Sequence record: MZ501108
Reading direction: 5' to 3' (one strand)
Length of the DNA stretch: 64,000 nucleotides
Source of the DNA: Escherichia phage TrudiGerster
Each line of letters opens with the position of its first letter. Positions within the stretch are counted from its first letter, which is position 1. Under the pieces are notes generated by a model. It did not search any database. It saw only the letters and a list, made by a program, of their open reading frames with translations, and was not told the origin of the DNA. Positions 1,800 to 27,752 of this stretch are shown here, piece by piece. The position numbers were made by a program, and so were the translations under genes.

Positions 1800-1913
1800 A
1801 TAAGTTTAGGATGGGATACTACTCAGTTGGTATCCCATTCCTACATTTTAAAATCCCCTTTACAAATTCGACATGATTATGTATACTATATTCATACAGT
1901 TGAGGAGAATACT

Positions 1914-4047: not shown

Positions 4048-4050
4048 TAA

Positions 4051-4680: not shown

Positions 4681-4697
4681 CGGAGAATTATTTAAAA

Positions 4698-6074: not shown

Positions 6075-6093
6075 TACAGGCTTTTCAGCCGAT

Positions 6094-6121
6094 AAGGAGA
6101 GCTTCGGCTCTCCTTTTTTAT
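6094..6121 (+). terminator. rho-independent terminator after major capsid gene
   Basis: hairpin aggagagc-ttcg-gctctcct followed by T-run. Confidence 0.75.
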
Positions 6122-6136
6122 TGGGAAAAATAAATG
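6114..6136 (+). repeat. conserved 23-nt element ttttttattgggaaaaataaATG (copy 1)
   Basis: identical 23/23 to 11131-11153; ends in the start codon of the downstream gene. Confidence 0.8.
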
Positions 6137-6646
6137 CAAATCATCACTGTTGAAGATTACAGACTATATGCTAACGCAAAACGTCCTGAAATTGAAACAC
6201 AAGTAGATATGATGATTAAAGCTGCCAATACGCTGATTACTAGCCTTCTAGGTATGGACGACGCGGATGCGGTAGATCAATTAATCACTACTAAACCTAG
6301 CCGTAGGAAATACTTTTTGAGTTCTCCTTCTGCTACATCAGTCACAAAGATGACTATTAATGAGAATGAAATAGCCCCGGAACAGTATAAACTGTATCCA
6401 GATGGTGTTATTCTCCTTAAATTTAATCCACCAGAAGGGTATATGGATGTAGAATATACGCAAGGTGGTTTCAACCCAATGCCTGAAGATCTCAAGCTGG
6501 CTGCATGTCTATTAGTAGATCACTGGCATAAACAAGATTATCGTCAAGCCAAGACTATTGGTGGTGAAACAGTAACGTTTAACAATACTAAGTCAGGTAT
6601 TCCTGAGCATATTCGTACAATCATCGAAGTCTATAGGAGAGTATAA
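6134..6646 (+). CDS. putative head completion / head-tail adaptor protein
   Basis: 170 aa ORF following the capsid gene; assignment by position. Confidence 0.45.
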   Translation: MQIITVEDYRLYANAKRPEIETQVDMMIKAANTLITSLLGMDDADAVDQLITTKPSRRKYFLSSPSATSVTKMTINENEIAPEQYKLYPDGVILLKFNPPEGYMDVEYTQGGFNPMPEDLKLAACLLVDHWHKQDYRQAKTIGGETVTFNNTKSGIPEHIRTIIEVYRRV

Positions 6647-11138: not shown

Positions 11139-11153
11139 TGGGAAAAATAAATG
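11131..11153 (+). repeat. conserved 23-nt element ttttttattgggaaaaataaATG (copy 2)
   Basis: identical to 6114-6136; ends in start codon of tape measure gene. Confidence 0.8.
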
Positions 11154-14831: not shown

Positions 14832-14837
14832 TATTGG

Positions 14838-14866
14838 AGGAGGACTTTATGTCCTCCTTTTCTTTA
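14838..14866 (+). terminator. rho-independent terminator after tape measure gene
   Basis: hairpin aggaggac-tttat-gtcctcct followed by ttttcttt; then a diverged copy of the ggaaaaataaa element. Confidence 0.7.
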
Positions 14867-14884
14867 TGGAAAAATAAAAATTTC

Positions 14885-14913
14885 TTGATAAAATTTTCCA
14901 ATCCTATTATAAT
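14885..14913 (+). promoter_or_regulatory. sigma70-like promoter upstream of distal tail gene
   Basis: TTGATA - 17 nt - TATAAT, followed by AGAGGAG RBS and ATG at 14940. Confidence 0.55.
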
Positions 14914-14939
14914 ATTGTTATTAAGAGGAGAAATTAACT

Positions 14940-15554
14940 ATGAGACTACCAGACCCATACACGAACCCAGAGCTATCAGGGTTAGGTTTTGAAAGCGTTA
15001 ACTTAGTAGACAATGACCCTATGATTCGTGATGAATTACCTAATGGTAAAGTTAGGGAGGTTAAGGTGTCTGCTCAATATTGGGGTATTAATATCTCTTA
15101 TCCAGAATTATTCCCAGATGAGTTTGCAAAATTAGACTCATTTATACTTGACTATAAAAGAAAGGGTGATTATATTGATGTTCTACTACCTCAATATGAA
15201 GCTTTTAGAGTACGTGGTGATACTAGTGCTGTGAATATTCCAGCAGGTCAAAAAGGTTCCACTGTTATGATGGATACTAAAGGAACACTACGTGGGCTAC
15301 CAAAGCCAGGAGATTTATTTAAACTCTCCAATCATCCTAAAGTATATAAAATCACTTCTATCACTACAGCAGGCAACTCATGGCAACTGAGTATTTATCC
15401 TGATCTGTTCATTACTACTACAGGTAGTGAAAAGCCAGTATTCAATGGTATTTTATTCAGAACTAAGCTCATGAATGGGGATAGTTTTGGCTCTACGTTA
15501 AATAATAACGGTACTTATTCTGGTATTTCACTTTCCTTGAGGGAAAGTCTATGA
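14940..15554 (+). CDS. distal tail protein (pb9-like)
   Basis: 204 aa ORF following tape measure gene. Confidence 0.65.
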   Translation: MRLPDPYTNPELSGLGFESVNLVDNDPMIRDELPNGKVREVKVSAQYWGINISYPELFPDEFAKLDSFILDYKRKGDYIDVLLPQYEAFRVRGDTSAVNIPAGQKGSTVMMDTKGTLRGLPKPGDLFKLSNHPKVYKITSITTAGNSWQLSIYPDLFITTTGSEKPVFNGILFRTKLMNGDSFGSTLNNNGTYSGISLSLRESL

Positions 15555-18400
15555 AGAAAATTCTTGACACAGCTAGAGAGTATTTAAGATCACACAATAA
15601 AATAAAAACAGCGTGTCTTATTACTCTTGAGCTTCCTAGCTCTACTGGATCTAGTGCAGCTTACATATATCTAACTGATTATTTCAGAGATGTTATGTAT
15701 AATGGTATTCTATATACATCTGGTAAAGTTAAGTCTATTGCAACTCACAAACAAAACAGAGATCTTTCCATTGGTAGCCTTTCTTTTACTATTACGGGTA
15801 CAGCAGAGGATGAAGTTTTAAAACTCGTTCAAAATGGTGTATCCTTCCTAGATAGATCTATATCTATTCATCAAGCTGTTATTGATGAAGATGGTAACAT
15901 TCTTCCAGTAGATCCAGATACTAATGGTCCTTTATTATACTTCCGTGGTAAGATTACTGGTGGAGGTATTAAAGATAATATTGGTACTTCAGGCATCAGT
16001 ACCTCAGTAATTACATGGAATTGTTCAAACCAGTTCTATGACTTCGATAGAGTTAACGGTCGTTTTACTGATGATGCTGACCATCGCGGATTAGAAATTG
16101 TTGCTGGTCAATTAGTTCCTTCTAATGGTGCTAAGCGTCCAGAGTATCAAGAGGATTATGGTTTCTTCCACGCTAATAAGAGTATCTCTATTCTTGCTAA
16201 GTATCAGGTGCAGGAAGAGAGATATAAACTGCAATCCAAGAAGAAATTATTTGGTCTATCAAGAAGTTATAGTCTTAAGAAGTATTATGAGACTGTAACT
16301 AAAGAAGTTGATCTTGATTTCAACCTTGCAGCTAAATTCCTTCCAGTAGTATATGGAGTTCAGAAAGTTCCTGGTATTCCAGTGTTTGCAGATACTGAAC
16401 TACATAATCCAAATATTGTGTATGTAGTATACGCCTTTGCAGAAGGGGAGATTGACGGGTTCCTAGACTTCTACTTTGGCGACGTTCCTATGATTTGTGT
16501 TGATCCAAATGATAGTAAAAACCGTACATGTTTTGGTACTAAAAAGACTGCTGGTGATACAATCCAACGTATTGCTTCTGGATTGCCAGACTCTTCTCCT
16601 TCTATTCACGGACAGGAATATAAGTATAACGATGGTAATGGGGATATTAGGGTATGGACATTCCACGGTAAACCAGATCAAACCGCAGCAGATGTTTTAG
16701 TAAACATTGCTAAAGAAAAAGGTTTCTATCTCCAGAACATGAATGAGAATGGCCCTGAATATTGGGATTCTCGTTATAAACTTCTAGATACTGCGTATGC
16801 TATTGTTCGTTTTACTATTAACGAAAACAGAACAGAAATTCCTGAGGTTAGTGCTGAGCTTCAAGGTAAGAAGATTAAGATCTACCATTCTGATGGTAAA
16901 GTAACTGCTGATCGTACTAGTTTAAACGGTATTTGGCAGACTCTTGACTACCTGACTTCAGATCGTTATGGTGCTAATATTACTATTGACCAGTTTCCAC
17001 TAAAACAACTAATTCAAGAGGCTGCTATTTTAGATATCATTGATGAGTCATATCAAGTATCTTGGCAACCTTATTGGAGATACGTTGGATGGACAGATGC
17101 AATAGGTGAACATCGTCAGATAGTACAGATGAACACTATTTTAGATACTTCTGAATCTGTGTTTAAAAACGTACAAGGTTTATTAGAATCTTTTGGTGGT
17201 GCGATAAATAACCTGTCAGGACAGTATCGTATAACTGTTGAAAAGTACTCCAATACTCCATTAGAGATTAACTTTATGGATACTTATGGGGACTTAGAGT
17301 TGTCTGATACAACTGGTAGGAATAAGTTTAACTCTGTTCAGGCCTCTATCCTAGACCCTGCATTAAGTTGGAAAACCAACTCTATCACATTCTTTAACTC
17401 TATATTTAAAGAGCAGGATAAAGGATTAGATAAAAAGCTGCAACTATCCTTTGCAAACATTACTAACTACTACACTGCACGTAGTTTTGCTGATAGAGAA
17501 CTTAAAAAGTCTCGTTACTCTCGAACTCTATCTTTCTCTCTACCATACCATTTCATTGGTATTGAACCTAACGATCCAATAGCATTTACTTATGACCGTT
17601 ATGGGTGGAATAAGAAATACTTCCTAGTAGACGAGGTTGAGAACTCAAGAGAAGGCAAGATTAATATTACTCTACAAGAGTACGGAGAAGATGTATTTAT
17701 TAACTCCGAGCAGGTAGATAACAGTGGTAATGATATTCCTGATGTAAGTAATAACGTTCTGCCTCCAAGAGATTTTATTTATACGCCAACTCCTGGCGGT
17801 ACTGTTGGAGCTATAGGTAAGAATGGTGAGTTATCTTGGCTTCCAAGTCTTACAAATAACGTTGTTTATTATTCTATTGTTCATTCTGGCCATGCAGAAC
17901 CGTATATCGTTCAGCAGTTAGAATCTAATCCAAATCTACGAATGATTCAAGAAATCATAGGAGAACCTGCTGGTTTAGCAGTATTTGAGATTAGAGCAGT
18001 AGATATAAATGGTAGAAGAAGTTCTCCAGTAACTTTATCTGTAGAGCTTAATTCTGCTAAAAACTTAAGCGTTGTTAGTAACTTTAGGGTAACTAATACA
18101 GCTTCAGGAGATGCATCGGAATTTGTAGGGCCAGATGTTAAATTGGCCTGGGATAGGATTCCAGAAGAGGACATTATTGATGGTATCTACTATACTCTCG
18201 AAATCTACGATAATCTAGATCGTTTATTAAGAAGTGTACGTATTGAGGATCAATATGTTTATGATTATCTACTGATATACAATAAGGCAGACTATGCTTT
18301 GCTAAATGAAGATGCTCTTGGTATTAACAGGAAATTACGTTTCCGAATTAGAGCAGAAGGTGATAATGGCGAGCAATCTGTGGATTGGGCATCTATTTAA
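15551..18400 (+). CDS. baseplate hub / tail tip protein (pb3-like)
   Basis: 949 aa ORF, overlapping stop/start with flanking tail genes. Confidence 0.7.
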   Translation: MKKILDTAREYLRSHNKIKTACLITLELPSSTGSSAAYIYLTDYFRDVMYNGILYTSGKVKSIATHKQNRDLSIGSLSFTITGTAEDEVLKLVQNGVSFLDRSISIHQAVIDEDGNILPVDPDTNGPLLYFRGKITGGGIKDNIGTSGISTSVITWNCSNQFYDFDRVNGRFTDDADHRGLEIVAGQLVPSNGAKRPEYQEDYGFFHANKSISILAKYQVQEERYKLQSKKKLFGLSRSYSLKKYYETVTKEVDLDFNLAAKFLPVVYGVQKVPGIPVFADTELHNPNIVYVVYAFAEGEIDGFLDFYFGDVPMICVDPNDSKNRTCFGTKKTAGDTIQRIASGLPDSSPSIHGQEYKYNDGNGDIRVWTFHGKPDQTAADVLVNIAKEKGFYLQNMNENGPEYWDSRYKLLDTAYAIVRFTINENRTEIPEVSAELQGKKIKIYHSDGKVTADRTSLNGIWQTLDYLTSDRYGANITIDQFPLKQLIQEAAILDIIDESYQVSWQPYWRYVGWTDAIGEHRQIVQMNTILDTSESVFKNVQGLLESFGGAINNLSGQYRITVEKYSNTPLEINFMDTYGDLELSDTTGRNKFNSVQASILDPALSWKTNSITFFNSIFKEQDKGLDKKLQLSFANITNYYTARSFADRELKKSRYSRTLSFSLPYHFIGIEPNDPIAFTYDRYGWNKKYFLVDEVENSREGKINITLQEYGEDVFINSEQVDNSGNDIPDVSNNVLPPRDFIYTPTPGGTVGAIGKNGELSWLPSLTNNVVYYSIVHSGHAEPYIVQQLESNPNLRMIQEIIGEPAGLAVFEIRAVDINGRRSSPVTLSVELNSAKNLSVVSNFRVTNTASGDASEFVGPDVKLAWDRIPEEDIIDGIYYTLEIYDNLDRLLRSVRIEDQYVYDYLLIYNKADYALLNEDALGINRKLRFRIRAEGDNGEQSVDWASI

Positions 18401-20458
18401 ATGATTTCGAATAATGCACCAGCCAAGATGGTCTTAAATAGTATTATGACTGGATATACAATGGCGTATATCCAGCATTCTATCTATACCGACTACGATG
18501 TTATCGGTAGATCATTCTGGCTAAAGATTGGGGAAGATATTGACAGACGTGACTATACCGGTGTCGATACTTTCTTTGTTATGATTAATAACTTAACTCC
18601 CTCTTCCATTTATCAGGTTCAGGGAGCTTTCTATGACTCGATTATAGATGAAGAACTTCTTGAAGCGAAGATTGGTATTAACCTCTCTAATGAAACTAAT
18701 TTTAAAACAAAAGAGAGGCCAGTCATTGTTGCTGCAAGATCAGAATCAGAACCTGTTGACGTGGGTGTTGGTGCTCCAATAGTTGTTGTAGAAACTACTG
18801 GTGAAGCTAGTTACTGCACTATTGAGTTAAGAAGCACTGCATCAGAAGATAGTGAATGGGTTAAGTATTACATAGGTGCAATGGGGGCTACTATTAAGTT
18901 TGGTGGTGTTCCTATTGGTGACTATAAGATTAGAATATCTGGCCAAGTAACTATGCCAGACGGTGTTACAGTAGACTCTTCAGGATACTATGAACTCCCT
19001 AGTATTCTTACTGTTGCATATAATTTCATTCCACCTACTGCTCCAACTAACATTACTTTCAAAGCTGCTAGAATTGCAGATGGTAAAGAACGTTATGATG
19101 TTAGGATTGAGTGGGATTGGCAAAAGGGTGGTGGTTCTAACGTTCGTGAGTTTCTAGTTACTTATATAGATTCTGCGGAATTTGCTAGAACTGGATGGGC
19201 TAAAGCTCAGAAAATAAACGTAGGTGCTGCGCAGGCTGCAACAATTGTTTCCTTCCCATGGAAAGTTGATCATACCTTCAAGGTAGCATCAATTGCCTGG
19301 GGTCCTGATAAACAAGACATTACAGAATCTGCTCCTGTAACGTTTATACTAAATGAAGATACTCCACTCGATAACAGCTTTGTTAATGAGACTGGTATCG
19401 AAGTTAACTATGCATACATTAAAGGTAAACTTAATGACAATGGTACGTGGAGACAGACTTTCTTAATTGATGCCGCAACTGGTGCTATTAACATTGGCCT
19501 ATTAGATGAAGAGGGTAAAGCTCCAATTTCCTTTGACCCAATAAATCACGTTGTTAACGTTGATGGTAAAGTAATTACTAGAGATATTAATGCTGCAAAC
19601 TTTATTATGACTAACCTGTCTGGTAAAGATAACCCTGCAATTTACACTCAAGGTAAATCTTGGGGAGATAATAACTCTGGTATCTGGATGGGGATGGATA
19701 ATGCCTCGGCCAAAGCAAAATTAGATATTGGTAACGCCACACAATGGATTCGTTATGACGGTGATGTACTGCGTATCTCTAGTGGAGTAGTTATTGGAAC
19801 CCCTAATGGTGACGTTGACATTGGGACAGGTCTGCAAGGTAAGCAAACAGTATTTGTTTATAAGTTAGCAACCTCACTTCCAGCAAAACCATTAGAGCAA
19901 GATTACCCACCTCCCGGTTGGTCGAAAACTCCACCTAACCGTACAGATATGACTCAAAATATCTATGCGACTACAGGTACACTTGATCCAGTTACTAATA
20001 AACTGCTTGCAGGTACTAGCTGGTCAGACGTGGTTCAATGGAGTGGTACTGAAGGTACCATCGGTCATGATGGTCAGCGTGGTCCTGGGATGTATTCCTT
20101 AGGAATTGCTGGATTGAGTGGGTGGAATGATGCTCAGGCTAACGCTTTCTTCCAAAATAACTTTGGAGGTCCTCCAGTTAAGTATGATGTATTGACTGAG
20201 TTTAATAGTAGTGCTCCACAAACTGCATTTACTCGTCAATGGAATGGCTCTAGTTGGGTTAGTCCTGCAATGGTGTTGCATGGAGACATGATTGTTAATG
20301 GCACGGTAACTGCTAGCAAGATTGTTGCGAATAATGCTTTCTTATCTCAGATTGGTGTTAACATCATTTATGATAGAAATGCTGCACTATCTGGAAACCC
20401 CGAGGCATACTACAAGATGAAGATAGACCTAAATAGTGGGTATATCCATATAAGGTAA
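18401..20458 (+). CDS. central tail fibre / tip protein (pb4-like)
   Basis: 685 aa ORF following baseplate hub gene. Confidence 0.6.
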   Translation: MISNNAPAKMVLNSIMTGYTMAYIQHSIYTDYDVIGRSFWLKIGEDIDRRDYTGVDTFFVMINNLTPSSIYQVQGAFYDSIIDEELLEAKIGINLSNETNFKTKERPVIVAARSESEPVDVGVGAPIVVVETTGEASYCTIELRSTASEDSEWVKYYIGAMGATIKFGGVPIGDYKIRISGQVTMPDGVTVDSSGYYELPSILTVAYNFIPPTAPTNITFKAARIADGKERYDVRIEWDWQKGGGSNVREFLVTYIDSAEFARTGWAKAQKINVGAAQAATIVSFPWKVDHTFKVASIAWGPDKQDITESAPVTFILNEDTPLDNSFVNETGIEVNYAYIKGKLNDNGTWRQTFLIDAATGAINIGLLDEEGKAPISFDPINHVVNVDGKVITRDINAANFIMTNLSGKDNPAIYTQGKSWGDNNSGIWMGMDNASAKAKLDIGNATQWIRYDGDVLRISSGVVIGTPNGDVDIGTGLQGKQTVFVYKLATSLPAKPLEQDYPPPGWSKTPPNRTDMTQNIYATTGTLDPVTNKLLAGTSWSDVVQWSGTEGTIGHDGQRGPGMYSLGIAGLSGWNDAQANAFFQNNFGGPPVKYDVLTEFNSSAPQTAFTRQWNGSSWVSPAMVLHGDMIVNGTVTASKIVANNAFLSQIGVNIIYDRNAALSGNPEAYYKMKIDLNSGYIHIR

Positions 20459-20464
20459 CAAATA

Positions 20465-20887
20465 ATGAGTACAGAAAATAGAGTTATTGATATTGTTGTT
20501 GATGAGAAAGTACCTTATGGTCTTATTATGCAGTTTATGGATGTTGATGATAGTGTCTATCCTCCAACTGAAGTTCCTGTAAATTTAGAGGGCTACTCAC
20601 TTCGTGGAACAATTAAATCTAGCCTTGATGAAAACGCCGAGATTCTAGCAAATTTTAAGGCTCGTGTAGTGGATGCCTCTCAGGGAGCCGCAGCGATTAG
20701 TCTTACTGTTGAAGATGTTACTAACATTGGTAACAAAGCATCTAAAGAACGTGATAAGTATAACCCAAGACAACGTTTCGCTGGTTATTACGACATTCTA
20801 ATGACTCGTGATGTTATTGGCTCAGAAGTCAGCTCATTCCGTATCATGGAAGGTAAGATCTACATCAGCGATGGAGTAACTCAATAA
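20465..20887 (+). CDS. putative collar / fibre attachment protein (p132-like)
   Basis: 140 aa ORF immediately upstream of the L-shaped fibre gene. Confidence 0.45.
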
Positions 20888-23800
20888 TGGCGATCAGAAC
20901 TAAAATTATTGTACAGCAGATTCTGAACATAGATGACACTACAACTACTGCTAGTAAGTATCCTAAGTATACAGTAGTTTTAGGTAACTCTATTAGTTCT
21001 ATTACTGCTGGTGAGCTGACTGCAGCTGTGGAATCATCCGCAGCTTCAGCTGCTGCTGCTAAAGATTCTGAAATTGCAGCAAAATCATCCGAAACTAATG
21101 CTAGAGACTCAGAAAATAGAGCCGCTATCTATGCTGATTCTTCTGAAGCTTCTGCTACTCAATCAGCTACTTCTGCTACAGAATCTGAGAGACAGGCTGA
21201 ATTATCTAAGGCTAGCGCTGAAGAATCCGCTGCATCTGCTACAGAAGCTGGTACACACAAAGATGCGGCTCAGTTAGCTGCTCAAAATGCTGAGAGAAGT
21301 AGAGAACTAGCCGAACAAGCTAAAACTGCTGCTCAACAAGCCCAGGTAGCCGCGGAGACTGCTAAGACGGGAGCTGAAACAGCTAAAGAAGGAGCAGATG
21401 CTGCTGCGACAACGGCTGGAGAACATGCTGCTGCTGCTAAACAATCAGAACTAAATGCTAAAGTTTCCGAAACTAATGCTGCTGGTTCTGCTACCGAAGC
21501 TGGTGATAAAGCTATCGATGCTACTGCTGAGGCAGACCGTGCTAAAGCAGAAGCCGATCGTGCATCCCAGGTTGTTGATGGTAAACTTGATAAAGTAGAC
21601 ATCTCTGGTTTTATCAAAGTTTATAAGACAAAAGCAGAAGCTGATGCGGATGTTGCAAACCGTGTTCTAGATGAAAAGATCTTAGTTTGGAATCAAACTG
21701 AGTCAAAATATGGTTGGTATAAAGTTGCAGGTACTACTAAAGCTCCTGTCCTAGAGTTAGTAGAAACTGAACAGAAACTTGTATCAATCAATAACGTTCA
21801 CGCTGATGATGCTGGTAACGTACAGATTACACTTCCAGGCGGTAACCCTTCTCTATGGTTAGGTGAAGTTACTTGGTTCCCTTATGATAAAGATTCTGGT
21901 GTTGGCTACCCTGGTGTTCTGCCTGCTGATGGACGTGAAGTACTTCGCGTAGACTATCCAGATACTTGGGAAGCTATCGAAGCTGGTCTGATCCCCTCTG
22001 TTACTGAGACTGAATGGCAGGCGGGTGCAATTCTTTACTTCTCCACTGGTGATGGTTCTACAACGTTCCGTTTACCAGATATGATGCAAGGGCAAGCCTT
22101 CCGTGCACCAACTAAAGGCGAAGAAGATGCTGGCGTTATTAAAGATCAGATTCCTTATGTTGTGACAGTTAATGGTATCTCTCCAGATGATATAACTGGT
22201 AACGTTGAAATTGATACCTCACTACAAGGTACTGTTAATATTAATCAAGGAGGTACTGGTGCAACAACTAAAGAAGACGCCCGTATAGCCCTCGAGCTAT
22301 ATAGTACTACGGAAGTTGATTCTGCTTTAGCAGATAAGGCCGATATTGCTACCACGTATACTAAGATGGAAGTTGATTCTGCTTTAGCAGATAAGGCCGA
22401 TATTGCTACCACGTATACTAAGATGGAAGTTGATTCTGCTTTAGCAGACGCTAAAACTCAGTCAGATACTAACTACTTATTAAAAGCAAATAACTTGAGT
22501 GATCTCGGAGACCGTACTGCTGCATGGCTTAACGTGCGACCACTTGGCTCTACTCCACTGGCGTCAGACCCTGTAAGTGACTATGACGCCACAACTAAGC
22601 GCTGGGTGCAGAACTTAATCGGCGCAGGGACTGTAGGCCCGACAATGAACGGGGTCATGAATTATGGTGTTGGGGATTTCCACCTACGGGATAGCAGGGC
22701 GTATATTCAACCTTATGAGGTATTATCAGACGGTCAATTGCTTAATCGTGCAGCATGGCCTGAATTGTGGGCATATGCTCAGATGCTATCCCCTATCAGT
22801 GATGCTGAGTGGCTTAGTTCTGCGGAAAAACGTGGGCGTTATTCCACCGGTGATGGGTCAACAACCTTCCGTGTTCCAGACCGAAACGGTGTGCAGCCTG
22901 GGTCAACGACTAGTCTTTTTGGACGAGGGGATGGTGGTACTTCATCAGAGAACGGTAGGGTTTATGAAGCTGCTGCACCTAATATATTGGGGACATTTGC
23001 AAATGATACCAGCGGAAAGGTGTGGATGCCTGCTCCAAAATCAGTAACGGGATCTTTTGGTTATGCCCCAACAACAGAAATGACATTTTTACCTAATGAT
23101 GGTTCCTTTGTAAAAGTCAATAACAATGCTACTACGACCTTTAATGCGAGATTGAGCGACGAGGTATATGGTAAATACGAAGTTAAAAATCAGATACTGC
23201 CCAAAAGTTTTGTAGGTGTTTGGGTTATTCGCGCATCCGGAGGTTTTACTGCTGCAAATACGTCATGGTCTGTGATCAATGCGGATGCTGTGGTTCCTGG
23301 AGCTAATGTTACTACTTATGGTGGTGATATGTGGTCAACATACCAAGTGGCTGGTGCTGATTATGTCAAATTAGGCTATCGTGCGAAAGTCACTATTGAT
23401 GGTGCGTCTACAGGAGAAATCCGTCTAATGGATAGCAGGGTAGGGGGTACTAGCAAAACCTGGGAAATGCCTACTGTCAGTGGTACGCTTCTTAGTAGTG
23501 CGGATATAGGAACTTCAGGAGCTAAAATCCCTTTACTTAACGTTCAGAACATGTGGACAAAAACTCAGGTTTTCCAAGAATCAGGTGTTGTCACTCAATC
23601 GGTGCTGCCATCGGATGCTACTTTAAATGATCACGGCGGTCCTCATTTTGTTTCATATGTTATAACTGATAATCAAATTCGTTTAGGCGCTAAATTCTTT
23701 TCTAGTTTTGATTCTACGAATTTAAGAAGAGCCGTTGTCCAAGTCACAACAGATAACGATGCTTCCGCCCAGATATTTGCATTTGATCAGAGAGGGGATA

Positions 23801-24285
23801 TTTCATCTGCGAAAGGTATTGTACAGTGGAGTGGCTCTGATACCCGTATTAAGACTAACTTTGAACCTGTGCAAAGTGGGTCGTGGGAGCGTATTTCTAA
23901 GATTAGTATCTGTGAATATACCTATAAGGTAAACCCTACTCCTCAGCGTGGGTATCTCGCTCAGCAAATGAGGGAAATAGACCCGTTATATGTCTTTGAA
24001 GGGGGTAGGTCTATTGATGATAACGGCAAAGAGTTTGAAATACTAAACGTGAACGATAAAGCTGTTACAGCAGATTTAATCATAGTTGTGCAGCAAATGC
24101 AGGAAAAACTAGCTGTGCTTGAAGAGCATAATAAAAAGATTATCCCCTTAGAGGAAGAAATAGCTACTTTAAAAGATGAAGTTAATACTCTTAAAAAGTT
24201 ACTTGTAGAGATTAATCAATCATTAGCTATCACTAGTCGTGTCTCAGCTTTAGAGTCCGAAGTTAATGAATTAAAACGTCCTTAA
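20887..24285 (+). CDS. ltfA: L-shaped tail fibre protein with C-terminal intramolecular chaperone (S74-like) domain
   Basis: 1132 aa; Ala/Ser/Glu-rich coiled N-terminal third; internal perfect tandem repeat; C-terminal SDTRIKTNFEP...YTYKVNP...LAQQMREIDPLYVFEG plus coiled-coil tail typical of autocleaving chaperone domains. Confidence 0.82.
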   Translation: MAIRTKIIVQQILNIDDTTTTASKYPKYTVVLGNSISSITAGELTAAVESSAASAAAAKDSEIAAKSSETNARDSENRAAIYADSSEASATQSATSATESERQAELSKASAEESAASATEAGTHKDAAQLAAQNAERSRELAEQAKTAAQQAQVAAETAKTGAETAKEGADAAATTAGEHAAAAKQSELNAKVSETNAAGSATEAGDKAIDATAEADRAKAEADRASQVVDGKLDKVDISGFIKVYKTKAEADADVANRVLDEKILVWNQTESKYGWYKVAGTTKAPVLELVETEQKLVSINNVHADDAGNVQITLPGGNPSLWLGEVTWFPYDKDSGVGYPGVLPADGREVLRVDYPDTWEAIEAGLIPSVTETEWQAGAILYFSTGDGSTTFRLPDMMQGQAFRAPTKGEEDAGVIKDQIPYVVTVNGISPDDITGNVEIDTSLQGTVNINQGGTGATTKEDARIALELYSTTEVDSALADKADIATTYTKMEVDSALADKADIATTYTKMEVDSALADAKTQSDTNYLLKANNLSDLGDRTAAWLNVRPLGSTPLASDPVSDYDATTKRWVQNLIGAGTVGPTMNGVMNYGVGDFHLRDSRAYIQPYEVLSDGQLLNRAAWPELWAYAQMLSPISDAEWLSSAEKRGRYSTGDGSTTFRVPDRNGVQPGSTTSLFGRGDGGTSSENGRVYEAAAPNILGTFANDTSGKVWMPAPKSVTGSFGYAPTTEMTFLPNDGSFVKVNNNATTTFNARLSDEVYGKYEVKNQILPKSFVGVWVIRASGGFTAANTSWSVINADAVVPGANVTTYGGDMWSTYQVAGADYVKLGYRAKVTIDGASTGEIRLMDSRVGGTSKTWEMPTVSGTLLSSADIGTSGAKIPLLNVQNMWTKTQVFQESGVVTQSVLPSDATLNDHGGPHFVSYVITDNQIRLGAKFFSSFDSTNLRRAVVQVTTDNDASAQIFAFDQRGDISSAKGIVQWSGSDTRIKTNFEPVQSGSWERISKISICEYTYKVNPTPQRGYLAQQMREIDPLYVFEGGRSIDDNGKEFEILNVNDKAVTADLIIVVQQMQEKLAVLEEHNKKIIPLEEEIATLKDEVNTLKKLLVEINQSLAITSRVSALESEVNELKRP
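22312..22448 (+). repeat. 57-bp perfect in-frame tandem repeat (2.4 copies) inside fibre gene
   Basis: unit gaagttgattctgctttagcagataaggccgatattgctaccacgtatactaagatg at 22312-22368 and 22369-22425, partial third copy to ~22448; encodes EVDSALADKADIATTYTKM. Confidence 0.9.
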
Positions 24286-24300
24286 TAATTATTAGGTAAA

Positions 24301-24324
24301 TACCTGTGAGATATCTCACAGGTA
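24301..24324 (+). promoter_or_regulatory. perfect 24-bp palindrome between the two fibre genes
   Basis: tacctgtgagatatctcacaggta is its own reverse complement; function (terminator hairpin or operator) unknown. Confidence 0.5.
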
Positions 24325-24397
24325 TCCCCTAGTACTAATTTATTAAAAAAGTAAAGAAGATTATAGTATATACTACTAGGTCTTTCTAGGAAATACT

Positions 24398-26164
24398 ATG
24401 TCACGTAATTTAATGCCTAAATCCGGCGCAATGGCGCCTTACGTTGTAGTTAACAGAGATGCTGCGGTTGCTGGTGTTTTCTCTGTTGATGGAGAGGCTG
24501 GTGCTGTTGTACTAACTTCCAAATACCTACAAATTACAAAGTATACTACTGATAAGACAGCTACTGATGCTGCGATCAAGAGTATTAATGATTCAATTGG
24601 TAACATCAATACTGCACTTGGTGGTATCAACACTACTCTAGATACTAAGGCTGCAAAAGGTGCTAATAACGATATTATAGAACTAAACGCACTGACTAAG
24701 GCTATTACTATTGCTCAGGGAGGTACTGGTGCTACTACCTTACCAGACGCAAAAACAGCTTTACAAGTAGATCGTTTAAGGCAGCAGGATAATGGTACTT
24801 TTGTAACCTCTCCAGATGGGAAGTACTCTTTATTTATCTATAATAGTGGAGATTTTGGACTGATTAATAGTTCTACTGCTGCAGTCCAAGCTATGAAAGT
24901 GCAGTTCGGAGGAACAGGGGCTTATGACGCAAAAACAGCAAGAAAGAACCTAGATGTTCCTGTAGGAGCTACAGCTGTAAATATTCCCCCTAATAGTAAC
25001 GTTCTTGCATATATTGCTACTATGGGGCAGAGTGGATACTACTCTTCAGGTGAGCTAATCACATTTGGTCCTCCTGTACAAGAAGGTTGGTGGACTTTTA
25101 ACTTCCACTGTCATGGTGTAGATATCAATGGTGTTGCACAGTATGGGGTTCTTAAGGCAACCGGGATATCAGGTAGTTCTTGGATCAATATTCTCAGCGG
25201 ATCAGGTAATTGGACAGGCTGGCAAGAGCAGTTTAATGTACAGTCTACAATCTCTATTGCTAATGGAGGTACTGGTGGTAATACATATGGTCAAGCTAGA
25301 GAGAATCTAGGTATTACACGTTTTGTTCAAGGTTCCTCCTCAACAGTAGTACAGTCTGCTGATGGGTTGCATAGCTTCAGTCTTGCGGATACCGGAGAAT
25401 GGGGTGTTACTAAGAAAGGGCAGCCAGGTTGGATTACTTTAGGGATCGCCCAAGGAGGTACTGGTGGGGGAGATATTAATACTGCTCGTAACAACCTTAA
25501 TCTAGGAACTGGTCAGCAGGCAGTATTTGACTCAGTATATTTGCCTAACTATAAGGCTGCTGATTGGTCTTATGGGGTAGGTTGTAGAATCAATGGTGGT
25601 GCATTATCTAGTTGGTCTTCTAGGCCTGTAGCTGTTAGTGTTGATGGTAATACTACTGATGTGGCTGTAGGTATTGCTAAAGTTACTATTCCAGGAAAAG
25701 GATACGCTTGTAACGTTGATGGCATACTTTGGAACGACGGAACCTCTGAGCTAGATATAATGACTGGTGCTTCTAGATTCTATTTCCATAGTGATGGTGG
25801 TGGTAGAGCATCTAACTGGATTAACGTCTCAGATATTAGAACTAAATCTAATTTAGCTAAGATCGAAAATCCATTAAGTAAGATCAATTTACTATGTGGT
25901 TATACTTATCAGAAACGAACTAACATTGATGATCCTGAAAGCAAAGATTATTCTATGGAAGCAGGTATTATTGCTCAGGATCTCCAGAAAGTATTGCCTG
26001 AAGCTGTATACCAAGTAAGTCAGGACGGTTACCTTGGTGTTAGTTATGGTGGTGTTTCTGCCCTTCTAGTTAGCGCTGTTAATGAGCTTAGTGGGATTGT
26101 TGAGCAACAGAAGCAAGAAATTGATGAACTCAAGGAATTGGTAAAACAACTACTTGCTAAGTAA
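24398..26164 (+). CDS. ltfB: second tail fibre protein with C-terminal intramolecular chaperone domain (LtfB-like branch fibre)
   Basis: 588 aa; repeated QGGTGA/ANGGTGG/AQGGTGG motifs; C-terminal SDIRTKSNLAKIENPLSKINLLCGYTYQKR...GIIAQDLQKVLPEAVYQ plus coiled coil resembles the ltfA C-terminus. Confidence 0.72.
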   Translation: MSRNLMPKSGAMAPYVVVNRDAAVAGVFSVDGEAGAVVLTSKYLQITKYTTDKTATDAAIKSINDSIGNINTALGGINTTLDTKAAKGANNDIIELNALTKAITIAQGGTGATTLPDAKTALQVDRLRQQDNGTFVTSPDGKYSLFIYNSGDFGLINSSTAAVQAMKVQFGGTGAYDAKTARKNLDVPVGATAVNIPPNSNVLAYIATMGQSGYYSSGELITFGPPVQEGWWTFNFHCHGVDINGVAQYGVLKATGISGSSWINILSGSGNWTGWQEQFNVQSTISIANGGTGGNTYGQARENLGITRFVQGSSSTVVQSADGLHSFSLADTGEWGVTKKGQPGWITLGIAQGGTGGGDINTARNNLNLGTGQQAVFDSVYLPNYKAADWSYGVGCRINGGALSSWSSRPVAVSVDGNTTDVAVGIAKVTIPGKGYACNVDGILWNDGTSELDIMTGASRFYFHSDGGGRASNWINVSDIRTKSNLAKIENPLSKINLLCGYTYQKRTNIDDPESKDYSMEAGIIAQDLQKVLPEAVYQVSQDGYLGVSYGGVSALLVSAVNELSGIVEQQKQEIDELKELVKQLLAK

Positions 26165-26199
26165 AAGAAAACCCCAGTGGATTGTCCACTGGGGTTTAT
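26163..26199. terminator. bidirectional terminator at late/early module boundary
   Basis: hairpin ccccagtgg-attgt-ccactgggg flanked by A-run upstream and T-run downstream; sits between convergent gene blocks. Confidence 0.75.
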
Positions 26200-26201
26200 T
26201 A

Positions 26202-26471
26202 TTATCTACTTCCGGTAATAATACCTAAGTTAAATACTGCTAACATAGCTCTGAGAGTAGGATCTTCGGACTTGCTACATAATTCGACAAAAGCATCTTC
26301 GTCCCAATAAATTACATTACCTTCTCGATCTACTTTAAGAACTACATTATTCAGGTTAGGTTCAGCAACTGCAACATGATAAGTATTTGACTGCTCAAAA
26401 TTACCTACCATATTAGGATCTGAATAGTTATAATTATTTACTTCCTGAGCTTCCAAATCCACCTTCTCCAC
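26202..26471 (-). CDS. hypothetical small protein (doubtful; start uncertain)
   Basis: 89 aa ORF with GTG start overlapping dUTPase 3' end; no signal peptide, no recognisable motif. Confidence 0.25.
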   Translation of the reverse strand: MEKVDLEAQEVNNYNYSDPNMVGNFEQSNTYHVAVAEPNLNNVVLKVDREGNVIYWDEDAFVELCSKSEDPTLRAMLAVFNLGIITGSR

Positions 26472-26880
26472 GTACAGTCTCCTCTAATTCGTCGACGATT
26501 TCAAAATGATGAGTTGAATAGTGTGGTAGTACCACTAGCTGGCAAAGTCTCTCGAAATTCTCCAGTGTTTGAATTTCAGAACCGTAGTTAAACAGATTCA
26601 TCTTAATAGTCCCACGATAGTCTGAGTCGATCACACCTGAGGTGTTTGCGATCATCAGATGACGCTTACCTAAAGAGCTACGAGGAACTACTAAACCGAA
26701 CCAACCTTGCGGAATTTCCACCGCAACACCGGTATCAATCATAAGGGCTTTGCCCGGTGCAATAGCTTTTAAATCTGCATTTGGGTTAGTACCGAAGAAT
26801 GCGCGCAGATCCATTCCTGCGGCATCTTCAGATCCAATCTTCGGCATGCAATCTGGGTGAGTTAGTTTAATTTTAATCAT
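26434..26880 (-). CDS. dut: dUTPase
   Basis: 148 aa; trimeric dUTPase-like motifs (AAGMDLRA, GVIDSDYRG, C-terminal GGFGSSG). Confidence 0.85.
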   Translation of the reverse strand: MIKIKLTHPDCMPKIGSEDAAGMDLRAFFGTNPNADLKAIAPGKALMIDTGVAVEIPQGWFGLVVPRSSLGKRHLMIANTSGVIDSDYRGTIKMNLFNYGSEIQTLENFERLCQLVVLPHYSTHHFEIVDELEETVRGEGGFGSSGSK

Positions 26881-27752
26881 TGTCCAGCAATCTCCAAAAT
26901 ATCTTTCGTAAACTTATCAAGTACGTCTTGACCAACCGCAGCAATAGCATCTATACAGTAAGTCGGTAAATCAACCAGAATCAGATTTCGGAAAAGCAAC
27001 TCCTCCGATGCGTTCAGATTCTGTATATATTTTTGTTTCCCAGGCAAAGGAAGTTGGTCAATAATATCCAGAACGTTTCCAAATTCACGGATAATATTAT
27101 AGCCACGTTTTGCACCAATCCCTTCAACACCACGGATGTTATCACCAAGATCTCCCATGATTGCTTTTAAAGAGATAAACTGGTCAACATCATCAACGTT
27201 GTGGTGCTCATACATATCACGAAGATGATACTCACGACGTGTGGTAAATGAGAAGCGAGAAACTCGATCTGTTAAGAGAGTATCCCAGTCACCATCGGTA
27301 GAGATTAACCAAACGTGATCATAATAATGACCAATGAGCTTAACAATATAAGCTGCCATGTCATCTGCTTCTACACCACGGATAGTGAAGGTCGGGAATG
27401 TAGTTTCACACAACTCGAAAGCATCACGCAGATACTCGAAGAACTGCTCGTCTAGAGCTTTCTCTTCTTCTGTACGTTGTGCATACTTTTCATCCCGGTT
27501 GCCCTTATAATCTGGAAGATGTTCAAGACGGAATACAGACTTCCCTTTATCACCAAGAACAATCGTAGTTCTAGCAGAATAAGATTTCGCCAAAGATTGA
27601 ATCGTCGATACATAACTAGAAGCAAAAGGTTTCTTACTATTATTATGTTTAAAGCGGAAGCCTAAGTTAGTTCCGTCAACAATCATAAGATTACGACGAG
27701 AAGCCAGCTCAGCTTCTTCCTCTTCAATAAATTTTCCCCAGGATTTACTCAT
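26877..27752 (-). CDS. flap endonuclease / 5'-3' exonuclease
   Basis: 291 aa; FEN-like acidic motifs (MIVDGTNL, VLGDKGKS.FR, GVEADD, ISTDGD) and helix-hairpin-helix segment GDLGDNIRGVEGIGAKRG. Confidence 0.85.
   Translation of the reverse strand: MSKSWGKFIEEEEAELASRRNLMIVDGTNLGFRFKHNNSKKPFASSYVSTIQSLAKSYSARTTIVLGDKGKSVFRLEHLPDYKGNRDEKYAQRTEEEKALDEQFFEYLRDAFELCETTFPTFTIRGVEADDMAAYIVKLIGHYYDHVWLISTDGDWDTLLTDRVSRFSFTTRREYHLRDMYEHHNVDDVDQFISLKAIMGDLGDNIRGVEGIGAKRGYNIIREFGNVLDIIDQLPLPGKQKYIQNLNASEELLFRNLILVDLPTYCIDAIAAVGQDVLDKFTKDILEIAGQ

What the first reader, a model, noticed from the sequence alone, without database searches (positions are those of the whole stretch)
20887..26164. Two-gene tail fibre locus: a long fibre plus a second, separately promoted fibre, both ending in chaperone-type domains
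The 1132 aa fibre is followed by a 588 aa ORF that also ends in an intramolecular-chaperone-like domain with a coiled-coil tail. The second gene is set off by a perfect 24-bp palindrome (24301-24324) and a 112-bp intergenic region with a -10-like element. This looks like the branched lateral fibre arrangement described for some T5-like phages, where receptor-binding domains exchange between phages. No receptor-binding or lipoprotein gene was recognised in the window.
Basis: partly seen in the sequence, partly recalled or inferred. Interest (0 to 1): 0.45.

Follow-up and report, generated by a model that had tools for sequence, protein, structure and literature searches.

The report
T5-like two-protein lateral tail fibre
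This is the ordinary, already described LtfA/LtfB lateral tail fibre locus of a T5-like coliphage (the published BASEL phage TrudiGerster): two host-sugar-binding fibre proteins, the second most likely riding on the first, and the palindrome between the genes is this phage's version of a hairpin that sits there in most relatives.

Summary
ltfA (20887-24285, 1132 aa) and ltfB (24398-26164, 588 aa) are intact. Both end in a Peptidase_S74 intramolecular-chaperone domain with the Ser-Lys cleavage motif. The 112-nt spacer holds a perfect palindrome, which is 26 bp long (24300-24325), not 24.

Both proteins are 100% identical to the "lateral tail fiber protein" and "tail fiber protein" of Escherichia phage TrudiGerster, an Epseptimavirus. 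Every sequence feature that defines the DT57C/DT571-2 branched fibre (Golomidova 2016) is present:
- a T5 pb1-like N-terminus on LtfA;
- a region like phiEco32 gp14 at LtfA aa 223-471;
- the 19-aa tandem repeat;
- a gp15-like N-terminus on LtfB.

About 150 T5-like records in the phage collection carry both modules. Both proteins are mosaics, and several breakpoints lie at GGTG motifs. No enzyme domain was found.

"Separately promoted" is not supported. No plus-strand promoter match lies in the spacer. In 11 other T5-like spacers examined (10 of them only 38-57 nt) a hairpin is followed by the ribosome-binding site, which leaves no room for a promoter in those 10. The palindrome is most likely a leaky terminator or RNA-stabilising hairpin. 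The receptor-binding protein pb5 and the lipoprotein llp lie outside the window by genome layout.

Verdict: already known, low interest.

The parts
20465..20887 (+). ltfC (p132), the collar protein to which the lateral fibres attach
   Evidence: Pfam PF23926 LtfC, E = 2.3e-15. 66-70% identical to T5.135 and T5.136.
20887..24285 (+). ltfA, the proximal, virion-attached lateral tail fibre protein, 1132 aa
   Evidence: 100% identical to the TrudiGerster lateral tail fiber protein (P0001). 65% identical over its full length to DT571/2 LtfA. PDB match 8hqz_d, DT57C LtfA.
20887..21576 (+). LtfA aa 1-230: collar-attachment N-terminus plus Ala-rich helical shaft
   Evidence: 51% identical to T5 pb1 aa 1-215, E = 8e-29. 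Imperfect Ala-rich direct repeats D1/D4.
21553..22299 (+). LtfA aa 223-471: inferred docking region for LtfB (like phiEco32 gp14 and SU10 gp12)
   Evidence: 43% identical to phiEco32 gp14 aa 239-508, E = 7e-53. PDB 7z47_D, E = 7e-47. This is the most conserved part of LtfA across relatives, mostly 86-98%.
22300..22470 (+). Tandem 57-nt (19-aa) repeat VDSALADKADIATTYTKME, two full copies plus one partial
   Evidence: Repeat family D3. It is the same motif at the same position as in DT571/2 LtfA (PMC4728585).
22474..23835 (+). LtfA aa 530-983: distal shaft and receptor-binding tip, a mosaic
   Evidence: aa 561-869 are 46% identical to phiEco32 gp15 aa 205-504. aa 401-700 are of the DT57C/DT571-2 type, aa 700-800 are unique, and aa 800-1132 are of the P0003 type. 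The AlphaFold model is poor, so the fold is not established.
23836..24285 (+). LtfA aa 984-1132: intramolecular chaperone (Peptidase_S74) with a long C-terminal helix; predicted self-cleavage before Ser984
   Evidence: PF13884. Motif S984-D-T-R-I-K989 matches T5 pb1 S1264-DARLK. Foldseek match to the MyRF ICA domain (TM about 0.6) and a weaker match to 3gw6.
24290..24334 (+). Intercistronic hairpin: outer 7-bp stem plus inner 11-bp stem with an AUAU loop; the inner part is the 26-bp perfect palindrome 24300-24325
   Evidence: It is conserved in Logan contig L003 with one change, in the loop. A hairpin sits at this position in 12 of 13 T5-like loci.
24388..24391 (+). Ribosome-binding site AGGA, 6 nt before the ltfB ATG
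   Evidence: Read directly. The motif AAGGAAATACT-ATG is shared with DT571/2, AKM_ECS, JNwz02, GEC_vB_N3 and DaisyDussoix.
24398..26164 (+). ltfB, the second lateral fibre protein, 588 aa
   Evidence: 100% identical to the TrudiGerster tail fiber protein (P0121). 82% identical to the vB_EcoS_Ace and IrmaTschudi proteins.
24398..24607 (+). LtfB aa 1-70: anchor thought to dock on LtfA
   Evidence: 58% identical to phiEco32 gp15 aa 1-72, E = 3e-16. aa 1-45 are 71-76% identical to kuravirus fibres. aa 1-50 are at least 92% identical in all T5-like comparators. aa 1-37 are disordered in the monomer model.
24698..25828 (+). LtfB aa 101-477: small beta domains and a knob separated by four GGTG motifs, then the distal tip
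   Evidence: GGTG motifs at aa 108, 171, 290 and 353. AlphaFold model with pLDDT about 80-88 in these domains. Foldseek matches the R1 pyocin fibre, the Mu fibre and T4 gp34, and no enzyme fold. A 44-aa cassette (aa 305-348) differs from Ace.
25829..26164 (+). LtfB aa 478-588: intramolecular chaperone; predicted self-cleavage before Ser478
   Evidence: PF13884, E = 1.2e-12. Motif S478-D-I-R-T-K483. S478 and K483 are invariant in 45 homologues. PDB 6f45_A, E = 1e-13.
26169..26197 (.). Bidirectional intrinsic terminator between ltfB and the convergent DUF7369/dut genes
   Evidence: 13-bp stem with 7 G-C pairs and T tracts on both strands. Phage T5 has an annotated 'efficient bidirectional rho-independent terminator' at the same position.

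Best explanation
The locus encodes the two-component lateral (L-shaped) tail fibre of a T5-like siphovirus. By exact protein identity the phage is Escherichia phage TrudiGerster, an Epseptimavirus.

Assembly. LtfA trimers attach by their N-terminus to the LtfC collar on the tail. LtfB trimers have no virion-attachment homology. They are inferred to hang on LtfA by docking their conserved N-terminal 45-70 residues to LtfA aa 223-471. This gives a branched fibre with two independent receptor-binding tips, most likely specific for two different O-antigen types.

Maturation. Each protein folds with the help of its own C-terminal intramolecular chaperone. The chaperone is then predicted to cut itself off, before Ser984 in LtfA and before Ser478 in LtfB. 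The mature proteins would be 983 and 477 aa.

Function. The fibres speed up or enable adsorption through the O-antigen layer. Irreversible binding is then made by pb5, which is encoded outside this window.

Expression. The two genes are most likely transcribed together as the end of the late tail operon. The strong hairpin right after the ltfA stop codon is the local form of a conserved intercistronic hairpin. It most likely acts as a leaky terminator or a 3'-end stabiliser, not as a gene boundary with its own promoter.

Shown here: ORFs, domains, homologies, motifs, mosaicism, and conservation of the hairpin position. Inferred: physical branching, self-cleavage, O-antigen specificity and the role of the hairpin.
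For: Identity and context:
- LtfA and LtfB are 100% identical to the TrudiGerster proteins.
- The gene order is pb3, pb4, ltfC, ltfA, ltfB, then convergent DUF7369, dut, flap endonuclease, D14 and SbcC. This matches DT571/2, T5 and IrmaTschudi.

Features defining the LtfA/LtfB fibre:
- LtfA 1-230 matches T5 pb1 1-215 at 51%.
- LtfA 223-471 matches phiEco32 gp14 239-508 at 43%. These are the same coordinates as reported for DT57C, and the region also matches SU10 gp12 in the PDB.
- The 19-aa repeat VDSALADKADIATTYTKME is present.
- LtfB 1-70 matches gp15 1-72 at 58%.
- The docking region and the anchor are the most conserved segments of their proteins.
- They are found in almost the same number of phage records, 240 versus 234, with the same organism breakdown.

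Chaperone domains:
- PF13884 matches above the curated cut-off in both proteins.
- The SDxRxK motif aligns with T5 pb1 Ser1264. In T5 the C-terminal 133 of 1396 residues are released (PMC4690869).
- S478 and K483 are invariant in 45 homologues.
- Both models match the MyRF ICA domain in fold.

Binding rather than cutting: no enzyme domain appears in Pfam, PHROGs or Foldseek, only fibre and knob folds.

Co-transcription:
- 12 of 13 T5-like spacers have a hairpin followed by the ribosome-binding site, and so does phiEco32 gp14-gp15. Apart from the three long spacers (window 112 nt, L003 115 nt, 26175II about 87 nt) they are 38-57 nt.
- The spacer has no plus-strand promoter match.
- The scan does detect the known T5-type terminator-plus-promoter cassette at 14836-14913.

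Literature: genetics (PMC4728585) and cryo-EM (PMC10713586) support attachment of LtfB through LtfA in DT57C.
Against: - No physical evidence for branching exists for this phage, and even for DT57C it is indirect.
- In the kuravirus SU10 the homologous pair is described as proximal and distal segments of one elbowed fibre, not as a branch.
- The window's spacer is 65-70 nt longer than usual and contains -10-like hexamers, so an extra promoter cannot be excluded.
- The hairpin lacks a clean U tract. Only AATTTATT follows the outer stem.
- The LtfA distal model was poor (pLDDT 61.7), so a cryptic enzymatic fold in aa 700-980 is not strictly excluded.
Confidence: 0.85

Rival explanations
1. ltfB is an independently transcribed unit. 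The palindrome terminates the ltfA transcript, and a promoter in the remaining 65 nt of the spacer drives ltfB.
For: The spacer is 112 nt, against 38-57 nt in most relatives. It contains TATAGT and TATACT. The same operon has a true terminator-plus-promoter cassette of similar length (108 nt) between pb2 and the next gene. ltfB is bracketed by the two strongest hairpins of the window.
Against: No plus-strand -35/-10 pair reaches 9 of 12 matches in the spacer; the only match there is on the minus strand. The best -35 candidate for TATAGT is TTTATT, 3 of 6 by direct reading. Relatives with the same conserved ltfB 5' end have hairpin plus ribosome-binding site only. The hairpin has no proper U tract.
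Confidence: 0.12
2. LtfA and LtfB form one serial, elbowed fibre with a proximal and a distal half, as described for the homologous SU10 gp12/gp13 pair, rather than a branched fibre with two tips.
For: The SU10 paper describes the homologues as long-tail-fibre proximal and distal proteins of one 700-A fibre with one elbow. The docking region and the anchor are homologous to that pair.
Against: LtfA continues for about 510 residues beyond the docking region. It ends in its own tip plus self-cleaving chaperone, whereas phiEco32 gp14 shows no SDxRxK motif. In DT57C and DT571/2 both proteins confer separate host specificities, and ltfB mutants keep LtfA-dependent infectivity (PMC4728585, abstract).
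Confidence: 0.1
3. The 26-bp perfect palindrome is a DNA-level site, either an operator for a dimeric DNA-binding protein or a recombination or nicking hot spot that marks the edge of an exchangeable fibre cassette. It would not be an RNA hairpin.
For: It is perfect through its centre, which an RNA hairpin does not need. It lies at a mosaic boundary, between the P0003-type ltfA 3' module and the conserved ltfB 5' end. It has no match in the phage collection or in viral contigs.
Against: In the one relative that has it (L003), the single change falls at the centre. That breaks the dyad symmetry but keeps the stem. Unrelated hairpin sequences occupy the same position in other phages, which argues for a structural rather than a sequence-specific role. 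There is no second copy in the window.
Confidence: 0.05

Closest known systems
LtfA/LtfB branched L-shaped tail fibres of T5-like phages DT57C and DT571/2 (Golomidova et al. 2016, PMC4728585; cryo-EM Ayala et al. 2023, PMC10713586)
   Same: The gene order is the same: ltfC, ltfA, ltfB, then a convergent dut cluster. LtfA is 64-65% identical over its full length. The same gp14-like region lies at aa 223-471. The same 19-aa repeat is present. LtfB shares the N-terminal anchor (59% over aa 1-194). Both proteins end in PF13884 with the cleavage motif.
   Different: The backbone is Epseptimavirus, not Tequintavirus. The distal tip and chaperone of LtfA (aa 800-1132) and most of LtfB beyond aa 200 are unrelated alleles. 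LtfB is shorter (588 aa against 767). The spacer is 112 nt with a different, longer hairpin, against 38-39 nt. No receptor is known.
Phage T5 L-shaped tail fibre pb1 (Ltf), a single 1396-aa protein with a C-terminal intramolecular chaperone (Garcia-Doval et al. 2015, PMC4690869)
   Same: The N-terminal 215-230 residues are homologous (51%). The self-cleaving chaperone has the SDxRxK motif at a comparable position. The genomic position is the same, and the same bidirectional terminator lies downstream.
   Different: T5 has one fibre gene. It has no gp14-like docking region and no LtfB. Beyond the first 215-230 residues no other similarity to pb1 was detected by BLASTP.
Kuravirus long tail fibre pair: phiEco32 gp14/gp15 and SU10 gp12/gp13 (Siborova et al. 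2022, PMC9509320)
   Same: LtfA 223-471 matches gp14 239-508 (43%) and SU10 gp12 (PDB 7z47). LtfB 1-70 matches gp15 1-72 (58%). LtfA 561-869 matches gp15 205-504 (46%). A hairpin followed by the ribosome-binding site also lies between gp14 and gp15.
   Different: These are podoviruses, and the fibre attaches to an adaptor ring. The pair is described as serial proximal and distal segments. gp14 shows no S74 cleavage motif.
Peptidase S74 C-terminal intramolecular chaperone domains (K1F endosialidase CIMCD 3gw6; S16 gp37 6f45; MyRF ICA domain 7dc3)
   Same: Pfam matches above the curated cut-off. The Ser/Lys dyad motif is present. The fold is beta-rich and ends in a long helix.
   Different: The LtfA chaperone is long (149 aa, with a helix of about 73 residues). 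LtfB has 111 aa and T5 pb1 has 133.

Membership tests
T5-like LtfA/LtfB branched lateral tail fibre | Two consecutive fibre genes directly after ltfC (p132) at the end of the late tail operon | tested here: met
   ORFs and Pfam matches for PB4 and LtfC; same order as in DT571/2.
T5-like LtfA/LtfB branched lateral tail fibre | LtfA N-terminus homologous to the T5 pb1 N-terminus (collar attachment) | tested here: met
   aa 1-230 against pb1 1-215: 51% identical, E = 8e-29.
T5-like LtfA/LtfB branched lateral tail fibre | LtfA mid-region homologous to phiEco32 gp14 aa 239-508 (proposed LtfB docking site) | tested here: met
   aa 223-471: 43% identical, E = 7e-53. PDB 7z47_D, E = 7e-47.
T5-like LtfA/LtfB branched lateral tail fibre | LtfB N-terminal ~45 aa homologous to the phiEco32 gp15 N-terminus, with no homology to T5 virion proteins | tested here: met
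   71% identical over aa 1-45 by tblastn to EU330206. 58% over aa 1-70. No hit to T5 pb1.
T5-like LtfA/LtfB branched lateral tail fibre | Tandem 19-aa repeat immediately after the docking region | tested here: met
   22300-22470, two copies plus a partial one, the same motif as in DT571/2.
T5-like LtfA/LtfB branched lateral tail fibre | LtfB physically attached to the virion through LtfA (the branch) | not testable with these tools
   Only indirect evidence: the docking and anchor modules occur in 240 and 234 records and are the most conserved segments. The structure tool predicts single chains only.
T5-like LtfA/LtfB branched lateral tail fibre | Each protein recognises its own O-antigen type | not testable with these tools
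   The two distal parts are unrelated to each other apart from the chaperone domain and short motif matches. No receptor data exist for this phage.
Peptidase S74 intramolecular chaperone | Pfam PF13884 match above the gathering score at the C-terminus | tested here: met
   LtfA 35.1 bits and LtfB 48.3 bits, cut-off 22.
Peptidase S74 intramolecular chaperone | Catalytic Ser-Lys dyad in the motif S-D-x-R-x-K | tested here: met
   LtfA S984/K989, LtfB S478/K483, aligned with T5 pb1 S1264. Invariant in 45 LtfB homologues.
Peptidase S74 intramolecular chaperone | Autoproteolytic release after trimer folding | not testable with these tools
   Needs virion mass spectrometry or S-to-A mutants.
Intrinsic (rho-independent) terminator, for the palindrome | G+C-rich stem-loop followed at once by a U tract | tested here: inconclusive
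   The stem is strong (11-13 bp, fold -31 to -34 kcal/mol). The scan did not call it: CCCCTAGT follows the inner stem, and only AATTTATT follows the outer stem.
Sigma-70-type promoter in the ltfA-ltfB spacer | -35 and -10 hexamers with 16-18 nt spacing on the plus strand | tested here: not met
   No plus-strand site reaches 9 of 12 matches in 24286-24397. Positive control: TTGATA-17-TATAAT found at 14885-14913.
Tailspike or depolymerase (enzymatic receptor-binding protein) | Recognisable glycanase, lyase or esterase domain or beta-helix fold | tested here: not met
   Pfam and PHROGs give only fibre families. Foldseek gives pyocin, Mu and T4 fibre folds. The LtfA 700-980 model is of low confidence.

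The most novel reading that the evidence does not exclude
A stable hairpin is kept between the proximal and distal fibre genes across T5-like siphoviruses and kuravirus podoviruses. Here it is enlarged to a 26-bp palindrome within a 112-nt spacer. It could be a functional expression switch, an attenuator or processing site that sets the LtfA:LtfB ratio or the timing of synthesis so that LtfB docks only on folded LtfA. In this lineage it could be combined with a weak internal promoter. It might also mark the boundary at which whole 3' fibre modules are exchanged.
Probability: 0.15. Interest if true: 0.35.

Novelty: already known. Interest (0 to 1): 0.15.

Why it matters
The lateral fibres decide which O-antigen-bearing hosts a T5-like phage can infect. 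A correct domain map shows which pieces to swap when re-targeting such phages: attachment, docking region, repeats, tips, self-cleaving chaperones and GGTG junctions. This locus adds no new principle. It is a fresh allele combination of a system described in 2016, in a published and annotated phage. The one mildly useful general point is that a hairpin followed by the ribosome-binding site lies between the two fibre genes in almost all relatives, including kuraviruses. That argues for co-transcription and against treating ltfB as an independent unit.

Tried and rejected
- The exact palindrome core (22 nt) was searched in IMG/VR viral contigs: no match.
- The 151-nt spacer region was searched in the phage collection by blastn. 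Only the ribosome-binding site and the ltfB start matched; the palindrome part matched nothing.
- Rfam at E up to 1 over 20000-27000 gave nothing at the spacer, only a chance sub-threshold Spot 42 hit at the downstream terminator.
- The promoter scan of the spacer found no plus-strand site. The one minus-strand site (10 of 12 matches) was not pursued.
- Depolymerase or tailspike reading: rejected. No enzyme family appears in Pfam or PHROGs, and there are no enzyme folds in Foldseek.
- The AlphaFold model of LtfA aa 530-1132 was too poor to assign the tip fold (pLDDT 61.7; only the chaperone and one beta domain are confident).
- The 'three-fibre' arrangement in the closest relative, IrmaTschudi, was considered as a variant architecture and rejected. 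It is a single GAA-to-TAA nonsense codon in an otherwise Ace-like ltfA.
- A hidden pb5 or llp in the window: rejected by tblastn.
- The third fold search, the representative-protein search and the metagenome and genome scans were not used. The identity was already exact.

Full report
OBSERVATION. The two ORFs are exactly as described: 20887-24285 (+, 1132 aa) and 24398-26164 (+, 588 aa). The spacer is 24286-24397, 112 nt. The palindrome is real and slightly longer than reported. ATACCTGTGAGATATCTCACAGGTAT at 24300-24325 is a perfect 26-mer. It is unique in the window and absent from 100 shuffles even with 3 mismatches allowed. With 13-bp arms it ties for the longest perfect hairpin in the 64 kb. 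The other is the terminator just after ltfB at 26169-26197, so ltfB is bracketed by the two strongest hairpins of the window. Shuffled sequence gives 0-2 hairpins with arms of 10 bp or more. As RNA the spacer folds at -33.6 kcal/mol (z = -4.25). The fold has an inner 11-bp stem with an AUAU loop and an outer 7-bp stem, 24290-24334. -10-like hexamers (TATAGT, TATACT) are present.

WHAT THE WINDOW IS. LtfA and LtfB are 100% identical over their full length to the "lateral tail fiber protein" and "tail fiber protein" of Escherichia phage TrudiGerster, on a 114,179-bp contig (P0001; P0121). This is a BASEL-collection T5-like phage. The first 20.4 kb of the window are 88-92% identical and collinear with Epseptimavirus genomes from position 1 of their records.

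The neighbouring genes are those of the T5 late tail operon and the early genes that converge on it. In order they are pb2 (11151-14831), a 204-aa gene, pb3 (15551-18400), pb4 (18401-20458, four PB4 Pfam domains), ltfC/p132 (20465-20887, PF23926), ltfA and ltfB. On the minus strand follow DUF7369, dUTPase, flap endonuclease, the D14 PDDEXK protein and an SbcC-like ATPase. The order is the same in DT571/2, IrmaTschudi and T5.

IS IT THE LtfA/LtfB FIBRE? Golomidova et al. (PMC4728585) defined the DT57C/DT571-2 fibre by a set of sequence features. All of them are met here.
- LtfA aa 1-230 are 51% identical to T5 pb1 aa 1-215 (E = 8e-29).
- LtfA aa 223-471 are 43% identical to phiEco32 gp14 aa 239-508 (E = 7e-53). 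These are the same coordinates as in the paper. The region also matches the solved SU10 long-tail-fibre proximal protein 7z47_D (E = 7e-47).
- Directly after it lies the 19-aa tandem repeat VDSALADKADIATTYTKME, two copies plus a partial one (nt 22300-22470).
- LtfB aa 1-70 are 58% identical to phiEco32 gp15 aa 1-72, and aa 1-45 are 71-76% identical to many kuravirus fibres.
- Both proteins carry PF13884 above the curated cut-off.
- Overall, LtfA is 65% identical to DT571/2 LtfA over its full length, and LtfB aa 1-194 are 59% identical to DT571/2 LtfB. The best solved relative of LtfA is DT57C LtfA itself (8hqz_d).

The docking region and the anchor are the most conserved stretches of their proteins. 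LtfA aa 301-400 are 88-98% identical, and LtfB aa 1-50 at least 92% identical, in all T5-like comparators. The two modules also occur in nearly the same set sizes in the phage collection. The docking region is covered at 80% or more in 240 records, and the anchor matches in 234, with matching counts per organism name. About 150 of those records are T5-like (identity bands). The arrangement is therefore common.

DOMAIN ANATOMY. The LtfA parts are:
- attachment N-terminus and Ala-rich helical shaft, aa 1-230;
- docking region, aa 223-471, ending in a GGTGA motif at aa 455;
- 19-aa repeats, aa 472-528;
- distal shaft with a region 46% identical to phiEco32 gp15 aa 205-504, aa 561-869;
- tip, to aa 983;
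- chaperone, aa 984-1132.

The LtfB model has a mean pLDDT of 74.8. Its parts are:
- a disordered anchor, aa 1-37;
- a long helix, aa 35-100;
- small beta domains and a knob (aa 190-280), separated by four GGTG motifs at aa 108, 171, 290 and 353;
- a beta tip, aa 400-477;
- the chaperone, aa 478-588.

Foldseek matches the R1 pyocin fibre (6cl5), the Mu fibre, T4 gp34 and, for the chaperone, the MyRF ICA domain (TM about 0.6). No enzyme fold appears. PHROGs and Pfam give only fibre families. The LtfA distal model was poor (pLDDT 61.7), and only the chaperone and one beta domain are confident.

The cleavage motif S-D-x-R-x-K is at S984/K989 in LtfA and S478/K483 in LtfB. It matches T5 pb1 S1264, where the C-terminal 133 of 1396 residues are released (PMC4690869). 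S478 and K483 are invariant in 45 homologues. The predicted mature sizes are 983 and 477 aa.

MOSAICISM. Windowed identity shows that LtfA is built from at least four sources.
- aa 1-400 match the Epseptimavirus backbone, 92-98% to IrmaTschudi and Ace.
- aa 401-700 are of the DT57C/DT571-2 type (mostly 82-100%, falling to 62-72% over aa 651-700). They are 98-100% identical to the Tequintavirus DT571/2 at aa 401-500, which is higher than the flanks.
- aa 700-800 are essentially unique.
- aa 800-1132 are shared mainly with one Logan metagenome fibre (P0003, 72-98%).

LtfB is 82% identical to the Ace and IrmaTschudi proteins. The strongest difference is a gapless 44-aa cassette (aa 305-348) that lies exactly between two GGTG motifs, and aa 201-300 are also somewhat diverged.

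THE SPACER. The palindrome-bearing part of the spacer has no match in the phage collection or in viral contigs. It is present downstream of the P0003 gene in Logan contig L003, where the spacer is 115 nt. The only change within the palindrome falls at its centre, in the hairpin loop, so the stem is kept and the dyad symmetry is broken.

I compared the ltfA-ltfB spacers of 13 T5-like loci and the phiEco32 gp14-gp15 spacer.
- Twelve T5-like loci and phiEco32 have a stable hairpin right after the upstream stop codon, followed by the ribosome-binding site.
- The hairpin sequences differ.
- Apart from the three long spacers (window 112 nt, L003 115 nt, 26175II about 87 nt) the spacers are only 38-57 nt long, so there is no room for a promoter.
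- One phage, 118970_sal2, has overlapping stop and start codons.

The window's spacer looks like a foreign 3' module with its own hairpin, placed in front of a degenerate copy of the usual A-rich spacer and ribosome-binding site.

The consensus scan finds no plus-strand promoter in the spacer. It does find the homologue of T5's annotated terminator plus promoter P-G25 between pb2 and the next gene: a hairpin at 14836-14860 and TTGATA-17-TATAAT at 14885-14913. The hairpin is not followed by a clean T tract, so it does not pass as a canonical terminator. Rfam has nothing there.

My reading is that ltfA and ltfB are co-transcribed, and that the hairpin is a leaky terminator or 3'-end stabiliser. 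An extra weak promoter in the additional 65 nt cannot be excluded.

pb5 AND llp. No homologue is in the window. In the collinear phage IrmaTschudi they are the last two genes of the record, just before the terminase at the record start. Their absence here is a consequence of where the window begins.

MECHANISM. LtfA trimers bind the LtfC collar through the pb1-like N-terminus; this is shown by cryo-EM for DT57C. LtfB trimers dock by their N-terminal anchor on the gp14-like region of LtfA. This step is inferred from homology, co-occurrence, DT57C genetics and the lack of LtfB density on the DT57C tail core. Both tips bind surface glycans without degrading them, since no enzyme domain is present. 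The chaperones assist trimer folding and then cut themselves off, which is inferred from the motif.

The main rival for the architecture is a serial proximal-distal fibre, as described for the homologous SU10 pair. The roughly 510 residues of LtfA beyond the docking site, with their own tip and chaperone, argue for a branch.

NOVELTY AND VERDICT. The system was described in 2016. It is present in about 150 T5-like records in the phage collection. This very locus is deposited and annotated as lateral tail fibre genes, and the BASEL paper already notes the high diversity of the lateral tail fibre locus among its T5-like phages. What is particular here is the allele combination and an unusually long spacer hairpin. 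That is ordinary variation for this locus. Interest is low.

Noticed in passing
L001 (IrmaTschudi MZ501076) 3485-6547; stop at locus 5522-5524: The apparent three-gene fibre locus of the closest named relative is a single in-frame nonsense codon (GAA to TAA, codon 680) in an ltfA that is otherwise 95% identical to the intact 1020-aa gene of vB_EcoS_Ace. This fits the fact that lateral fibres are dispensable on rough K-12 hosts, or it may be a sequencing error.
   Followed up: yes
window 14832-14939: The 108-nt spacer between pb2 and the next tail gene carries a terminator-like hairpin (14836-14860 plus a T run) followed by TTGATA-17-TATAAT (14885-14913). It is homologous to T5's annotated terminator plus promoter P-G25. 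I used it as the positive control for the promoter scan.
   Followed up: partly
window 24388-24360, minus strand: The best promoter-like match in 20000-27000 (TAGAAA-17-TATAAT, 10 of 12) lies in the ltfA-ltfB spacer on the minus strand and points antisense into the 3' end of ltfA. The T5 record annotates a comparable antisense promoter and a small ORF (T5.134) downstream of ltf. No convincing antisense ORF is seen here.
   Followed up: no
window 24300-24325 and 26169-26197: The two longest perfect hairpins of the whole 64-kb window (13-bp arms each) lie immediately before and immediately after ltfB.
   Followed up: partly
LtfA aa 401-500 (window 22087-22386): This stretch is 98-100% identical to the Tequintavirus DT571/2, while the flanking N-terminal parts are only 68-94% identical. 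This looks like a recent recombination patch between genera, covering the end of the docking region and the 19-aa repeats.
   Followed up: partly
Proteins P0113, P0116, P0120 (983-aa fibres of single-fibre Epseptimaviruses): The same proteins match the LtfA N-terminus (69% over 18% of LtfA) and most of LtfB (35% over 83%). They look like natural counterparts of the laboratory LtfA-LtfB fusions described by Golomidova et al.
   Followed up: no
LtfA aa 455; LtfB aa 108, 171, 290, 353 (window 22249, 24719, 24908, 25265, 25454): The motif (Q/N)GGTG(A/G)...A(R/K)xxL recurs five times at domain junctions and flanks the 44-aa cassette that differs from Ace. These are likely recombination joints.
   Followed up: partly
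Phage collection hits: T5-like sequences are deposited under unlikely host names: Corynebacterium phage CPphiVTCCBPA_418, Campylobacter phage A148, and records named for Listeria and Vibrio. These are probably contaminants or mislabelled records.
   Followed up: no
L012 (118970_sal2) 3765-5748; L006 (vB_EcoS-26175II) 324-3366: Other deposited T5-like genomes have ltfB or ltfA split into two or three ORFs. Broken lateral fibre genes seem frequent in this group.
   Followed up: no
window 63864-63889, 63377-63403, 48445-48469, 18450-18475: These are further perfect hairpins with 10-11-bp arms elsewhere in the window. They were not examined.
   Followed up: no
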